DNA from: Escherichia coli | Lineage (GTDB): Bacteria; Pseudomonadota; Gammaproteobacteria; Enterobacterales; Enterobacteriaceae | Length of the DNA: 64,000 nucleotides | Reading direction: 5' to 3' (one strand) | Assembly (NCBI RefSeq): GCF_046105845.1 | Contig: NZ_CP151004.1 | In this document: piece after piece, positions 39,401 through 43,569 of the stretch | Layout: every line of letters begins with the position of its first letter | How positions within the stretch are numbered: the stretch's first letter is position 1 | Program-made: the position numbers

Positions 39401-42400
39401 ACTCCTTTTTATAGATGCGGGAGGTAATTCCTCACCCCGGTGCCGATTTTCAGGCATCCTGATTTAACTTAGCACCCGCAACTTAACTACAGGAAAACAA
39501 AGAGATAAATGTCTAATCCTGATGCAAATCGAGCCGATTTTTTAATCTTTACGGACTTTTACCCGCCTGGTTTATTAATTTCTTGACCTTCCCCTTGCTG
39601 GAAGGTTTAACCTTTATCACAGCCAGTCAAAACTGTCTTAAAAGGAGTGTTTTATGTCACAAACTATCGACCTGACCCTGGACGGCCTGTCCTGCGGTCA
39701 CTGCGTTAAACGCGTGAAAGAAAGTCTCGAACAGCGCCCGGATGTTGAGCAGGCGGATGTGTCTGTCACTGAAGCGCACGTTACCGGGACTGCCAGTGCA
39801 GAACAGCTGATCGAAACCATCAAACAAGCGGGTTATGACGCATCTGTAAGCCACCCAAAGGCTAAACCGCTGGCGGAGTCATCAATCCCGTCGGAAGCAC
39901 TGACAGCGGTTTCTGAGGCGCTTCCGGCAGCGACCGCCGATGACGATGACAGCCAGCAGTTGCTGCTGAGCGGCATGAGCTGCGCCAGCTGTGTCACCCG
40001 CGTACAAAATGCGCTGCAAAGCGTACCGGGCGTCACTCAGGCACGGGTAAACCTGGCGGAGCGTACTGCGCTGGTGATGGGCAGTGCCTCCCCACAAGAT
40101 TTAGTGCAGGCGGTGGAAAAAGCGGGCTACGGCGCGGAAGCGATTGAAGATGACGCTAAACGCCGCGAGCGCCAGCAAGAAACCGCCGTCGCTACGATGA
40201 AGCGCTTCCGCTGGCAGGCGATTGTCGCACTGGCGGTGGGTATCCCGGTGATGGTCTGGGGGATGATCGGCGATAACATGATGGTCACCGCCGACAACCG
40301 CAGCCTGTGGTTGGTTATCGGCCTGATAACCCTGGCGGTAATGGTTTTCGCCGGCGGGCATTTTTACCGCAGCGCATGGAAAAGCCTGCTGAACGGTGCA
40401 GCGACGATGGATACGCTGGTGGCGCTAGGTACTGGCGTGGCGTGGCTCTATTCGATGAGCGTCAACCTGTGGCCGCAGTGGTTCCCGATGGAAGCGCGAC
40501 ATCTTTATTACGAAGCCAGTGCGATGATTATCGGTTTGATTAATCTCGGCCATATGCTGGAAGCACGCGCACGTCAGCGTTCTTCTAAGGCGCTGGAGAA
40601 ATTACTCGATTTAACCCCACCGACGGCGCGCCTGGTTACTGACGAAGGTGAAAAAAGCGTGCCTCTGGCAGAAGTGCAGCCAGGTATGTTGCTGCGCCTG
40701 ACGACCGGCGATCGCGTGCCGGTAGATGGCGAGATTACCCAGGGCGAAGCATGGCTGGATGAAGCGATGCTGACGGGCGAACCAATCCCGCAGCAAAAAG
40801 GCGAAGGCGATAGCGTCCATGCCGGGACAGTGGTACAGGACGGCAGTGTGCTGTTTCGTGCCAGTGCGGTCGGCAGCCATACTACGCTGTCACGAATCAT
40901 TCGCATGGTGCGCCAGGCCCAGAGCAGCAAGCCTGAAATCGGCCAACTGGCGGATAAAATCTCCGCTGTGTTTGTGCCGGTGGTGGTAGTCATTGCGCTG
41001 GTCAGTGCGGCAATCTGGTATTTCTTTGGCCCGGCACCGCAAATTGTTTATACCCTGGTGATTGCCACCACGGTGCTGATTATCGCCTGTCCGTGTGCGC
41101 TGGGACTGGCGACGCCGATGTCGATTATTTCGGGCGTCGGGCGGGCGGCTGAGTTTGGTGTGCTGGTGCGGGACGCCGACGCGCTGCAACGCGCCAGTAC
41201 GCTCGACACCGTGGTGTTCGATAAAACCGGGACGCTGACCGAAGGGAAGCCGCAGGTTGTCGCAGTAAAAACATTTGCTGATATTGATGAAGCGCAAGCA
41301 TTGCGTCTGGCGGCGGCGCTGGAGCAAGGTTCCAGCCACCCGCTGGCACGGGCGATCCTCGATAAAGCAGGTGATATGCAGCTACCGCAGGTCAACGGTT
41401 TCCGCACATTGCGCGGGCTGGGTGTGAGCGGTGAAGCTGAAGGTCATGCGGTATTGCTGGGCAATCAGGCGCTGTTAAATGACCAGCAAGTTGATACTAA
41501 AGCGATTGAGGCAGATATTTCAGCTCAGGCATCGCAAGGGGCAACGCCTGTGCTGCTGGCGGTTGACGGGAAAGCGGTGGCCTTGCTGGCAGTACGCGAT
41601 CCGTTGCGTAACGATAGCGTGGCGGCGCTGCAACGTCTGCATAAAGCGGGATATCGTCTGGTGATGTTGACCGGGGATAACCCAACCACCGCCAATGCGA
41701 TCGCCAAAGAAGCAGGGATTGATGAGGTGATCGCCGGGGTGCTGCCGGACGGTAAAGCCGAAGCGATCAAACGTCTGCAAAGTGAAGGACGTCAGGTGGC
41801 AATGGTGGGCGACGGCATTAACGACGCGCCAGCGCTGGCCCAGGCGGATGTCGGTATTGCGATGGGTGGCGGCAGTGATGTTGCCATTGAAACCGCGGCG
41901 ATTACCCTGATGCGCCATAGCCTGATGGGTGTTGCAGATGCGCTCGCGATTTCCCGCGCAACGCTGCGCAATATGAAGCAGAACCTGCTCGGTGCGTTTA
42001 TCTACAACAGCATTGGTATTCCGGTCGCCGCCGGTATTTTGTGGCCGTTCACTGGAACACTGCTTAACCCGGTGGTTGCCGGAGCGGCAATGGCGCTATC
42101 GTCGATTACCGTAGTGAGTAACGCCAACCGGTTACTGCGGTTTAAACCGAAAGAGTGATTGGTATTTACTTAATGCGTTTGTGAGATCCAGTTCTTGTTG
42201 CGCTCCTTTTATGAGTAATGCCATATAAAGTGACTGGCGCAGGGAGCGCGCAGGGGGCGGCCAATCGCCGCCGCCCCCTGCCCCCCCGGGCTCTGGCGAA
42301 CAAAATCGCCGCTGCGCGGTACCCTCAGCTTATCCCTTGCGGCTACCGGGTCGGGCGCGAGGTAACATCCCTGTAAAACGCGCCCTCAGCCCACATCCAT

Positions 42401-43569
42401 GTGGGCTGCCCCGGCCTTCAGGGAACGCCTCGGCGATTTTGACGCCACCAACACCGGTGCAGTCTTTCGTTTCAAAGCAAAAACAATTTTTCGATCATAT
42501 TTAAGCTACCACTGAACAAGCCTCATAACTCCATTTGCGCCATCCCTCCCTGCGCGCTAGCATGATATTTCACAAAGGGAGGTCGTATGGATCTGTTGTA
42601 CCGGGTAAAAACGCTTTGGGCCGCGCTGCGCGGTAATCATTACACCTGGCCTGCTATCGATATCTCTCTTCCCGGCAATCGCCATTTTCATCTGCTCGGC
42701 AGTATTCATATGGGTAGCCACGATATGGCTCCCCTGCCCACCCGTTTGCTCAAAAAGCTCAAAAACGCCGATGCGCTGATCGTCGAGGCGGATGTTTCCA
42801 CCAGCGATACGCCTTTTGCTAATTTGCCTGCCTGCGAGGCGCTGGAAGAGCGCATTAGCGAGGAGCAACTCCAAAACCTGCAGCACATTAGCCAGGAGAT
42901 GGGCATTTCTACCTCACTCTTTTCTACCCAACCGCTGTGGCAAATCGCGATGGTTCTTCAGGCGACACAGGCGCAAAAACTGGGGCTGCGGGCAGAGTAT
43001 GGTATCGATTACCAGCTATTGCAGGCGGCGAAGCAACAACATAAATCCGTGATTGAACTGGAAGGGGCAGAAAACCAGATTGCCATGTTGCTCCAGCTCC
43101 CTGACAACGGACTGGCGCTGCTGGACGATACGCTGACCCACTGGCACACCAATGCACGGTTGCTGCAACAAATGATGAGCTGGTGGCTGAACACGCCGCC
43201 GCAAAATAATGAAATAACGCTGCCTAATACGTTCAGTCAGTCGCTGTACGATGTGTTGATGCATCAGCGAAATCTCGCCTGGCGGGATAAATTACGCGCC
43301 ATGCCGCCGGGGCGATATGTGGTCGCGGTCGGTGCACTACACCTGTATGGAGAAGGGAATTTACCGCAAATGTTGCGCTAAAAAAATGGCCAATATCGCT
43401 ATTGGCCCGTCAAAGAGGAATTTCATTTTTTTATTATTATGCCGTCACTTTAAGCGACGGTGTAACTCGATTGTCGCTCAATCTCACCATCCTGCCAATA
43501 CTCTTAGGCAAGATGACTCTTTTTTTTGGACCGCCATCAGGCGTATGCTTGCTTCGTTTTTTTGTTTAA

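What the first reader, a model, noticed from the sequence alone, without database searches (positions are those of the whole stretch)
42159..42586. ybaQ-sized ORF missing between copA and ybaP; replaced by a GC-rich, highly structured element
In K-12 gene order (from memory) the small HTH gene ybaQ lies between copA and ybaP, but no ORF of 60 aa or more exists here on either strand. Instead there is a GC-rich stretch with 10-12-bp terminal inverted repeats (42237-42248 vs 42546-42558), three perfect internal hairpins and a long-range complementary pair (42295-42311 vs 42431-42446). That pattern fits a miniature inverted-repeat element or a structured non-coding RNA. Flanking a1/a2-like repeats recall a retron msr-msd, but no reverse transcriptase gene is adjacent.
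Basis: partly seen in the sequence, partly recalled or inferred. Interest (0 to 1): 0.55.

Follow-up and report, generated by a model that had tools for sequence, protein, structure and literature searches.

The report
Repeated double GGA-hairpin element replacing ybaQ
In this E. coli lineage the small regulator gene ybaQ and its neighbouring REP repeats have been swapped for one copy of an unannotated, about 270-base, hairpin-rich repeat found several times in Escherichia and Klebsiella genomes. Its core resembles the known TwoAYGGAY RNA motif, which has been proposed, but not shown, to bind the global regulator CsrA.

Summary
The copA-ybaP gap (42159-42586) has no ybaQ and no ORF above 55 aa, and it contains a GC-rich, strongly folding stretch.

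Compared with K-12, window 42155-42514 replaces about 730 bp (three REPs plus ybaQ). 346 of 5,426 complete E. coli genomes share this allele.

The structured part (42193-42466) is not unique. It is a dispersed repeat of about 272 nt:
- 1-10 places per E. coli genome (aqpZ-lysO, yohP-dusC, alx-sstT and others).
- Also in E. albertii, and at 13 places in one K. pneumoniae chromosome.
- At two E. coli loci it occurs in either orientation, depending on the strain.

On the minus strand its core is a long stem closing two hairpins with loops ACAUGGAUGU and ACAGGGAUGU. This is the TwoAYGGAY architecture, but it scores 31.5 bits against a gathering score of 43.

Nineteen copies show compensatory changes. 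GGA is invariant in three loop regions.

The loops match the CsrA SELEX consensus. CsrA sequestration by TwoAYGGAY is a published but untested hypothesis.

This copy lies antisense to copA and ybaP, and no consensus promoter or terminator was found.

The retron idea fails.

Verdict: a new variant of a known kind, of moderate interest.

The parts
39654..42158 (+). copA (context). Its 3' end is followed 35 nt later by the repeat unit.
   Evidence: ORF list. Annotated as copA in the identical allele of strain WP2-W18-ESBL-10.
42155..42514 (.). Allele-specific segment that replaces about 730 bp of K-12 DNA (three REP units plus ybaQ).
   Evidence: K-12 homology ends near 42154 and resumes at 42515. 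346 of 5,426 complete E. coli genomes carry the whole interval.
42193..42466 (-). The repeat unit (about 272 nt), one member of a dispersed Escherichia/Klebsiella family. The strand given is the one carrying GGA in the loops.
   Evidence: Nineteen distinct copies are aligned over this span. There are 1-10 places per E. coli genome, and Klebsiella copies exist.
42291..42448 (-). TwoAYGGAY-like core: a long outer stem closing two GGA hairpins and a third GGA region.
   Evidence: Rfam RF01731 matches 42303-42442 on the minus strand at 31.5 bits, below the gathering score of 43 (E = 0.009). My own model R1 scores 184.9 bits here, which is expected by construction. Minus-strand fold.
42301..42316 (-). 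Outer stem P1, one arm (pairs with 42426-42441).
   Evidence: Inverted repeat I2, 16 nt, 88% complementary. Helix 1 is 93% paired across the 19 copies, with 4 pairs changed on both sides.
42426..42441 (-). Outer stem P1, other arm.
42387..42408 (-). Hairpin H1. On the minus strand the loop reads ACAUGGAUGU (42393-42402).
   Evidence: Perfect 10-bp stem I8. Helix 3 is 98.8% paired with 3 compensatory pairs, for example ACA/UGU in E. coli against GCA/UGC in Klebsiella. CAUGGAUG is invariant in all 19 copies.
42355..42385 (-). Hairpin H2. On the minus strand the loop reads ACAGGGAUGU (42365-42374).
   Evidence: Fold. Helices 4 and 5 carry compensatory pairs. Across copies the loop reads CA[G/C/A/gap]GGA[U/C]G, with GGA invariant.
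42329..42339 (-). Third GGA region (CAAGGGAUAAG on the minus strand), in a poorly paired part of the core.
   Evidence: GGGAUAAG is invariant in 19 copies. The helices predicted around it are only 63-69% paired.
42250..42281 (.). 12-bp GC hairpin module (GCAGGGGGCGGC / GCCGCCCCCUGC).
   Evidence: Inverted repeat I4, 100% complementary. Helix 8 is 97% paired with 4 compensatory pairs, for example GGCGGC/GCCGCC becoming GGAGGA/UCCUCC in the yohP-dusC copy of strain Z142-6.
42200..42249 (.). Tail hairpin: stem GCGCTCC (42200-42206) with GGAGCGC (42243-42249) around a variable AT-rich loop. On the minus strand the 3' arm reads AAAGGAGCGC, which looks like a Shine-Dalgarno sequence but is base-paired.
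   Evidence: Helix 10 is 100% paired and invariant in 19 copies. The short ORFs that follow it differ between copies, and the window copy has no ATG there.
42546..42558 (.). It is NOT part of the element; it is ybaP-upstream DNA shared with K-12.
42587..43381 (+). ybaP (context).

Best explanation
SHOWN
- The structured stretch is one copy of an unannotated, non-coding repeat of about 272 nt that is dispersed in Escherichia and Klebsiella.
- It has three modules: a palindrome of about 160-180 nt whose tip carries two hairpins, a 12-bp GC hairpin, and a tail hairpin with an AT-rich loop.
- The palindrome is a diverged relative of the TwoAYGGAY motif. That motif belongs to a much wider class of multi-copy, long-hairpin repeats in which two ACAKGGAUGU-type loops are nearly constant while every stem varies.
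- In this lineage a 360-nt segment carrying the repeat replaced the REP cluster and the orphan HigA-like gene ybaQ downstream of copA. The same kind of swap is seen at alx-sstT, where the repeat stands in place of Box C-like repeats (identified from memory).

INFERRED
- How the family works: the constant tip is a binding module for a GGA-specific factor, most likely the CsrA dimer, which can bridge two GGA hairpins. It would act whenever the GGA strand is transcribed. The stems are kept paired either by selection or by palindrome correction.
- How this copy works: it lies antisense to both copA and ybaP, and no consensus promoter was found. It is therefore most likely a passive passenger. Its probable local effect is that, read through from copA, its very stable hairpins give the copA mRNA a structured 3' end, much as the REPs it replaced would. 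ybaQ is simply lost.

The confidence given (0.65) is for the whole statement. The identity as a dispersed repeat with a TwoAYGGAY-like core is about 0.9; CsrA as the factor that binds the tip is about 0.3.
For: Repeat family:
- The core is present at 1-10 places per E. coli genome, median 3.
- Copies were read at aqpZ-lysO, yohP-dusC and alx-sstT, in E. albertii, and at several Klebsiella loci, with 13 places in one chromosome-sized K. pneumoniae record.
- It has both orientations at aqpZ-lysO and at yohP-dusC.

Replacement of ybaQ.

Structure:
- Folding z-scores are -4.5 and -5.6.
- On 19 copies, 90.7% of cells are paired. 13 pairs changed on both sides, against 7.5 +/- 1.4 in shuffles (0 of 500) and 1-5 in slid controls.

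Relation to TwoAYGGAY:
- Rfam gives full-length matches of 30-33 bits in the five E. coli copies scanned that keep the AGGGAUGU H2 loop; the three scanned type B copies (L005, L006, L132) gave no match at E up to 1.
- The long closing stem and the two AYGGAY loops fit the authors' description, and AGGGAY loops occur in their Psychromonas sequences.
- My model of the enterobacterial core finds Salinicola elements at E = 1e-5 to 9e-4.

Wider class:
My arithmetic gives about 20 expected by chance.
- 73% have at least 3 further pairs around loop 1 (5% expected), with 51 different stem sequences.
- A median of 37 pairs enclose the two hairpins.
- Viral contigs matching the same pattern mostly lack these hairpins, which serves as a control.

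GGA and CsrA:
- GGA is invariant in three loop regions, while the base before it varies.
- Published CsrA facts: the SELEX consensus is RUACARGGAUGU, GGA sits in hairpin loops, and the dimer bridges sites 10-63 nt apart, best at 18 nt.
- A published motif scan matched TwoAYGGAY to the CsrA site.

Passive copy:
- No promoter or terminator consensus in 42050-42700.
- The orientation is antisense to both neighbours.
Against: - Rfam's curated threshold for TwoAYGGAY is not reached in the five E. coli copies that match; three type B E. coli copies and the Klebsiella copies fall below E = 1.
- There is no strand signal in the stems: 82 G-U cells against 71 A-C cells. The structure is therefore equally good as DNA or on either RNA strand, and the compensatory changes could come from palindrome correction rather than selection on an RNA.
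- In the wider class, orientation relative to neighbouring genes is random: 19 sense against 22 antisense.
- The published E. coli K-12 CsrA CLIP-seq tables mark dusC and ybjE (lysO) as having no peak. No number beginning 9150-9152 or 22291-22293, the leading digits of the two K-12 copies' positions, turned up as a peak position in the held supplementary files.
- How the unit moves is unknown. No terminal inverted repeats, no target duplication and no linked transposase were found.
- The effect on the copA 3' end is inference only.
Confidence: 0.65

Rival explanations
1. This copy is an expressed small RNA. Minus-strand transcription starts in the ybaP-ybaQ divergent promoter region that the allele partly retains. 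The RNA presents two or three high-affinity GGA hairpins and titrates CsrA, like a small CsrB or McaS. Copy number, which varies from 1 to 10 between strains, would then tune Csr activity.
For: - The element sits where ybaQ sat, with its GGA strand on the strand that encodes ybaQ in K-12.
- The loops match the SELEX consensus and the gap between the two 10-mers is 18 nt.
- GGA is invariant in 19 copies.
- The CsrA hypothesis for TwoAYGGAY is published.
Against: - No sigma-70 consensus promoter and no intrinsic terminator on either strand in 42050-42700.
- Only about 72-85 nt of the old ybaP-ybaQ intergenic DNA survives.
- The same element occurs in either orientation at other loci, and family orientation is random.
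- No CLIP-seq peak is reported for the genes next to the K-12 copies.
Confidence: 0.15
2. It is a classical MITE: a deletion derivative of an insertion sequence, bounded by terminal inverted repeats and moved in trans by a transposase. The conserved hairpin loops would be transposase (or HUH/RAYT-type) recognition sites on single-stranded DNA, not RNA signals.
For: - It is small, non-coding and multi-copy, its copy number differs between strains, and it takes either orientation at one site.
- Related elements in some marine Gammaproteobacteria MAGs do end in inverted repeats of the TGTAACTA...TAGTTACA type.
- The stems show no RNA-strand signal.
- Klebsiella copies adjoin REP-like units.
Against: - The enterobacterial unit has no terminal inverted repeats, and no target-site duplication is visible at 18 junction pairs.
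- No transposase recurs near 120 family loci.
- In MITEs the centre is normally the least constrained part. Here the centre (the two loops) is the only part conserved across phyla, while the ends differ between subfamilies.
Confidence: 0.12
3. It is a decayed remnant of ybaQ, or a unique piece of foreign DNA with a chance structure.
For: It occupies the ybaQ position. The 34 nt to the left and about 50 nt to the right of the repeat unit match nothing else in E. coli.
Against: - No residual similarity to ybaQ.
- The central 272 nt recur at many loci and in other genera.
- The structure shows compensatory changes.
Confidence: 0.01
4. It is a retron msr-msd or another reverse-transcriptase-linked RNA.
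For: Only the presence of flanking complementary segments and strong hairpins.
Against: - No reverse transcriptase gene. The neighbours are copA, ybaP, ybaK and ushA.
- No retron RNA family matched at E up to 10.
- The other copies lie between unrelated housekeeping genes.
Confidence: 0.01

Closest known systems
TwoAYGGAY RNA motif (Rfam RF01731; Weinberg et al. 2010, PMC2864571)
   Same: - A long closing stem, a short inner helix and two adjacent hairpins with AYGGAY-type loops on one strand.
- Multi-copy within genomes (Psychromonas in the original alignment).
- Not tied to particular genes.
- In the five E. coli copies scanned that keep the AGGGAUGU H2 loop, the Rfam model aligns end to end at 30-33 bits; three type B copies gave no match at E up to 1.
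   Different: - It scores below the gathering score of 43 bits.
- The second loop is AGGGAU or AGGGAC (also ACGGAC and AAGGAC), not strict AYGGAY.
- It carries a third GGA region and two extra hairpin modules, so the mobile unit is about 272 nt.
- It occurs in Enterobacteriaceae. The only gammaproteobacterial sequences I read in the original alignment were from Psychromonas.
CsrA-sequestering small RNAs (CsrB, CsrC, RsmX/Y/Z, McaS)
   Same: GGA motifs sit in hairpin loops and match the SELEX consensus RUACARGGAUGU. The spacing suits bridging by one CsrA dimer. A published motif scan proposed TwoAYGGAY as a CsrA-binding RNA.
   Different: - Only 2-3 sites, against 9-22 in CsrB and CsrC.
- No recognisable promoter or terminator.
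- It is a dispersed repeat in variable orientation, not a single regulated gene.
- There is no experimental binding evidence, and no CLIP-seq peak is reported next to the K-12 copies.
Enterobacterial intergenic palindromic repeats (REP/BIME, ERIC/IRU, Box C, RSA) and MITEs
   Same: - Short, non-coding and confined to intergenic DNA, with extensive self-complementarity.
- Copy number and occupancy vary between strains.
- It occupies the same 'slots' downstream of genes: it stands in place of REPs at copA and of Box C-like repeats (identified from memory) at alx-sstT.
   Different: - It shows no resemblance, as far as I recall their consensus sequences, to REP, ERIC or Box C (not compared with a tool).
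- K-12 has only 2 full copies and 1 partial copy, against 6 copies of 150/151 bp listed for RSA. The RSA sequence itself could not be compared.
- No terminal inverted repeats or target duplications.
- The conserved part is the tip of the hairpin, not its ends.

Membership tests
TwoAYGGAY (RF01731) | Score at or above Rfam's gathering threshold (43 bits) | tested here: not met
   31.5 bits in the window. 29.8-33.1 bits in the four other E. coli copies that matched; three type B copies gave no match at E up to 1. Klebsiella copies gave no match at E up to 1.
TwoAYGGAY (RF01731) | Two adjacent hairpins whose terminal loops contain AYGGAY, both on one strand | tested here: inconclusive
   H1 is AUGGAU in all 19 copies. 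H2 is AGGGAU, AGGGAC, ACGGAC or AAGGAC, so the Y position is not kept. AGGGAY loops also occur in the authors' own Psychromonas sequences.
TwoAYGGAY (RF01731) | Long closing stem P1 (often about 24 bp with few mismatches) | tested here: met
   A 29-pair outer helix, 93% paired across 19 copies, matching the authors' description.
TwoAYGGAY (RF01731) | Tandem G-A pairs in one stem (reported in later analysis) | not tested
   Mentioned in PMC4333381. I did not look for them.
CsrA-sequestering sRNA (CsrB/RsmZ type) | Several GGA motifs exposed in hairpin loops that match the CsrA consensus | tested here: met
   Two loops, ACAUGGAUGU and ACAGGGAUGU, plus CAAGGGAUAAG. GGA is invariant in 19 copies. 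The consensus is taken from the literature.
CsrA-sequestering sRNA (CsrB/RsmZ type) | A discrete transcription unit with its own promoter and terminator | tested here: not met
   No consensus promoter or intrinsic terminator in 42050-42700 on either strand. Consensus scans are weak evidence.
CsrA-sequestering sRNA (CsrB/RsmZ type) | Physical binding of CsrA and an effect on CsrA targets | not testable with these tools
   Published K-12 CLIP-seq tables mark dusC and ybjE as having no peak. Repeat-derived reads may have been discarded in that study.
MITE | Terminal inverted repeats at the ends of the element | tested here: not met
The ends of the unit (TCTTGTTGCGCT ... CGGTGCAGTCTT) are not complementary.
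MITE | Target-site duplication flanking each copy | tested here: inconclusive
   None is visible at 18 junction pairs, but no clean filled/empty site pair was available.
MITE | Small, non-coding, multi-copy, with presence/absence differences between strains | tested here: met
Retron msr-msd | An adjacent reverse transcriptase gene and an msr/msd RNA | tested here: not met
   The neighbours are copA, ybaP, ybaK and ushA. No retron family matched in the Rfam scan at E up to 10.
ybaQ pseudogene | Residual sequence similarity to ybaQ | tested here: not met
   A global alignment with the K-12 interval shows none between 42155 and 42514.

The most novel reading that the evidence does not exclude
Enterobacteria, including E. 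coli K-12 and Klebsiella pneumoniae, may carry a mobile, copy-number-variable family of TwoAYGGAY-type elements that are true high-affinity binding modules for the CsrA dimer. Wherever a copy is transcribed in the GGA sense, for example in the 3' UTR of dusC in K-12 or between aqpZ and lysO in O157:H7, it would sequester CsrA or place the host transcript under CsrA control. Turnover and inversion of the repeats would then rewire the Csr network between strains. More broadly, the double ACAKGGAUGU hairpin class would be a widespread 'portable CsrA site' in CsrA-bearing bacteria.
Probability: 0.2. Interest if true: 0.7.

Novelty: new variant of a known kind. Interest (0 to 1): 0.42.

Why it matters
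TwoAYGGAY has been an orphan motif since 2010. The proposal that it sequesters CsrA dates from 2015, and I found no experimental test of it in the literature I searched.

A clear, if diverged, relative with two full copies in E. coli K-12 and more in clinical E. coli and Klebsiella would move that question into the organism where CsrA biology and tools are best developed. Binding assays, CLIP-seq re-analysis and deletions are all routine there.

It also documents an unannotated repeat family in the most studied bacterial genome, and a concrete case of intergenic repeat turnover that removed a gene (ybaQ). Ten of the eleven family loci listed above fall below Rfam's threshold.

If the element is only a passive palindromic repeat, the finding is ordinary genome-plasticity bookkeeping.

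Tried and rejected
- Retron: rejected. There is no reverse transcriptase and no Rfam match.
- Decayed ybaQ: rejected.
- Intrinsic terminator with an oversized loop: considered because P1 is flanked by A and U runs. Rejected because only 4% of family members have a T-run after the outer stem, and the scan finds no terminator here.
- Small protein or type I toxin leader: the minus-strand tail reads AAAGGAGCGCAACAAGATGATG in some copies. The peptides that follow are 3, 9 and 26 codons long and unrelated, the window copy has no ATG, and the GGAGCGC is paired in an invariant stem. Rejected.
- Strand assignment from wobble pairs: 82 G-U against 71 A-C cells, so uninformative.
- Cis-regulatory role inferred from orientation: 19 sense against 22 antisense to both neighbours, so no bias.
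- Linked transposase or conserved neighbouring gene: all-against-all comparison of 1,872 flanking ORFs gave no family present at more than 4 loci.
- Phage association: no match in the phage collection. Viral contigs matching the loop pattern are mostly coding or tandem repeats without hairpins.
- Literature search by sequence strings gave no paper. Searches for CsrA together with aqpZ, dusC, yohP or ybjE gave nothing relevant.
- RSA repeat: only its size and copy number could be found (150/151 bp, 6 copies).
- Locating the third, partial K-12 copy and all copies in one genome: not achieved, because the search tool lists only one place per record. The alx-sstT gap of K-12 was checked and is empty.
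- A covariance model of the whole heterogeneous class: abandoned, because the MAFFT alignment of 66 diverse members was unreliable outside the loops. A model of the enterobacterial core was built instead.

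
Full report
**1. What is in the window**

- copA runs from 39654 to 42158 and ybaP from 42587 to 43381, both on the plus strand. The same annotation is found in an identical allele of strain WP2-W18-ESBL-10.
- The 428-nt gap has no ORF longer than 55 aa on either strand.
- In K-12 the same interval is 794 bp. It holds three REP units and the 342-bp gene ybaQ, on the strand opposite to copA and ybaP.
- K-12 homology stops near 42154 and resumes at 42515. A 360-nt segment therefore stands in place of about 730 bp. 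No similarity to ybaQ remains.
- GC reaches 0.65 in 42200-42399.
- Both strands fold far better than shuffled controls, with z = -4.5 and -5.6.

**2. It is a repeat, not a unique sequence**

E. coli searches:
- A search of 5,426 complete E. coli genomes found the full interval in 346 of them. Parts of it are in 5,425, at 2-11 places per genome.
- The 171-nt core alone has 1-10 places per genome, median 3.

Copies read in their context:

| Locus | Where |
|---|---|
| aqpZ-lysO | nearly all E. coli; also E. albertii |
| yohP-dusC | E. coli |
| alx-sstT | strain 64A:C; K-12 has Box C-like repeats there instead (my identification from memory) |

Klebsiella:
- The plasmid collection contains mislabelled chromosomes. 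Through these, the element was found in K. pneumoniae, K. aerogenes and K. variicola at about 83-87% identity.
- One K. pneumoniae chromosome has 13 places.
- The copies lie between unrelated housekeeping genes, and one locus has two copies in tandem.

Variation:
- Nineteen distinct copies define the unit as window 42193-42466, about 272 nt.
- At both aqpZ-lysO and yohP-dusC the element occurs in opposite orientations in different strains. The two sequence types differ by about 10% and have different short flanks.
- One strain has an internally deleted copy. The deletion lies between the short direct repeats CCCCGG and removes both GGA hairpins.

**3.

- An 11-nt perfect inverted repeat this far apart is rare in shuffles, at 0.7%.
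- Its right arm (42546-42558) lies outside the repeat unit, in ybaP-upstream DNA that K-12 shares.
- None of 17 other copies has such a partner.
- The true ends of the unit are not complementary, and I saw no target duplication.

**4. Anatomy and relatives**

- Rfam's only notable match is TwoAYGGAY (RF01731) on the minus strand, 42303-42442. It is a full-length alignment at 31.5 bits, with E = 0.009 for the 1-kb search, below the gathering score of 43.
- Four other E. coli copies score 29.8-33.1 bits; three type B copies and the Klebsiella copies fall below E = 1.
- On that strand a long outer stem closes two hairpins with loops ACAUGGAUGU and ACAGGGAUGU, 18 nt apart.
- The authors of TwoAYGGAY describe exactly this: two AYGGAY loops and an often very long P1. 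Their alignment has many copies in Psychromonas, some with AGGGAY loops.
- Outside the core, the enterobacterial unit adds a 12-bp GC hairpin and a tail hairpin with an AT-rich loop.

**5. A wider class**

Scan result:
- The pattern ACATGGATGT-N12-30-ACAKGGATGT was scanned across one genome per species.
My arithmetic gives about 20 expected by chance.
- Judging by the record titles (not tallied), most hits are Gammaproteobacteria: Vibrio, Psychromonas, Shewanella, Colwellia, Acinetobacter, Marinobacter, Salinicola, Lysobacter, Pseudoxanthomonas and many MAGs.
- Some hits are Firmicutes and spirochaetes, often with several copies per genome.

Hairpins, which the pattern does not require:
- 73% of hits have at least three more pairs around loop 1 (5% expected), with 51 different stem sequences.
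- 96% are enclosed by an outer stem, with a median of 37 enclosing pairs.
- Viral contigs matching the same pattern mostly lack these hairpins, which serves as a control.

Relation to Rfam and to the enterobacterial element:
- Only 3 of 20 diverse loci reach Rfam's TwoAYGGAY threshold, so the class is wider than the curated family.
- A covariance model built only from the enterobacterial core finds Salinicola elements at E = 1e-5 to 9e-4, and several others weakly.

Ends of the elements:
- In some MAGs the elements have conserved termini or TG...CA-type inverted ends.
- In one MAG the middle of the outer stem is hypervariable between copies yet stays complementary.

**6. Is the structure conserved?**

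- On the 19 enterobacterial copies, 90.7% of cells pair.
- 13 pairs show changes on both sides, against 7.5 +/- 1.4 in column shuffles (0 of 500) and 1-5 when partners are slid.
- P1, H1, H2 and the GC hairpin are supported. The helices around the third GGA region are not.
- G-U cells (82) and A-C cells (71) are balanced, so the stems do not say which strand matters. Palindrome correction at the DNA level could also produce such changes.
- The loops are more telling:
  - CAUGGAUG is invariant in all 19 copies.
  - H2 reads CA[G/C/A/gap]GGA[U/C]G, with GGA invariant.
  - GGGAUAAG is invariant.

**7. What it may do**

For CsrA binding:
- The loops fit the CsrA SELEX consensus RUACARGGAUGU, with GGA in a hairpin loop.
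- A CsrA dimer bridges two sites 10-63 nt apart, best at 18 nt.
- This link is not new. Gardner and Eldai (PMC4333381) reported strong matches between TwoAYGGAY and a CsrA-site model and proposed that it sequesters CsrA.
- From my own knowledge, the taxa hit by the pattern are lineages that have CsrA. I could not test this.
- In this class the tip of the hairpin is constant while the ends differ between subfamilies. That argues for a factor binding the tip rather than a transposase binding the ends.

Against, or unresolved:
- Orientation relative to neighbouring genes is random, 19 against 22.
- No protein family recurs nearby.
- Published K-12 CLIP-seq tables list no peak for dusC or ybjE.

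**8. This copy**

- Its GGA strand is antisense to copA and ybaP.
- No consensus promoter or terminator is found on either strand.
- The most economical reading is a passive copy. Its stable hairpins, read through from copA, structure the copA 3' end much as the replaced REPs would. That step is inference.
- The element lies on the former ybaQ strand, next to what remains of the ybaP-ybaQ divergent region. Minus-strand expression therefore cannot be excluded.

**9. Verdict**

- This is a real, unannotated repeat family of Escherichia and Klebsiella.
- Its core is a diverged variant of a known orphan motif that has a published but untested CsrA hypothesis.
- The gene-order anomaly is explained by repeat turnover.
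- It is not a retron, not a ybaQ remnant, and not a classical MITE by the tests available.

Noticed in passing
window 43380-43463 (-): sroB / ChiX small RNA lies between ybaP and ybaK, as in K-12 (Rfam 82.1 bits).
   Followed up: no
window 6370-6447 (+) and 58574-58638 (-): Two further Rfam matches above threshold: naRNA4 (a REP-derived nucleoid-associated RNA, 71.9 bits) and the dnaX frameshift element (96.8 bits).
   Followed up: no
L001/L003 (K-12) vs L005/L006 (N4220121, O157:H7), aqpZ-lysO; L133 (K-12) vs L132 (Z142-6), yohP-dusC: The same intergenic site holds the element in opposite orientations in different strains at two loci. The two sequence types differ by about 10% and have non-homologous short flanks. 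Whether this is inversion, independent insertion or allele replacement is not resolved.
   Followed up: partly
L137 2497-2770 (E. coli 64A:C) vs L170 3047-3444 (K-12), alx-sstT: In strain 64A:C the element occupies the place where K-12 has Box C-like GC-rich repeats (my identification from memory). This parallels the replacement of REPs at copA and suggests shared 'slots' for intergenic repeats.
   Followed up: partly
L009 about 2922-3055 (lysO-aqpZ region on a 42-kb E. coli 'plasmid'): An internally deleted copy that lacks both GGA hairpins. The deletion appears to lie between the short direct repeats CCCCGG (window 42284 and 42409). The 'plasmid' carries chromosomal genes (hcr to ybjX).
   Followed up: partly
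L134 2022-2294 and 2459-2731 (K. pneumoniae, pcaC to mechanosensitive channel gene): Two copies in tandem about 440 nt apart. Klebsiella copies share extra flanking sequence, including REP-like units, so the repeated unit there is larger and composite.
   Followed up: partly
L048-L056 (Gammaproteobacteria MAG SB0675_bin_1): Nine copies share conserved termini (GCACnnnGnGAGTCGCCG ... CGGCGACGGATCGAAGCCAC) and conserved loops. The middle of the outer stem differs between copies yet remains complementary.
   Followed up: partly
L010-L129 (genome contigs pattern hits): 17 of 20 diverse loci with the double ACAKGGAUGU hairpin are not recognised by Rfam's TwoAYGGAY model at its threshold, so the curated family covers only part of this class.
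   Followed up: partly
L170 about 3400-3440 (K-12 sstT leader): The sstT 5' region contains GCACCAGGGATGTGC, a small hairpin with a CsrA-like AGGGAUG loop just upstream of the ribosome-binding site.
   Followed up: no
window 22966-23070 (-): A weak match to my enterobacterial core model (12.6 bits, E = 2.1), probably chance.
   Followed up: no
plasmid collection records CP125156.1, NZ_CP134663.1, NZ_CP141089.1, NZ_OL790696.1: Records of 4.8-5.4 Mb labelled as plasmids are evidently chromosomes. This was useful here but is a caveat for counts based on the plasmid collection.
   Followed up: no
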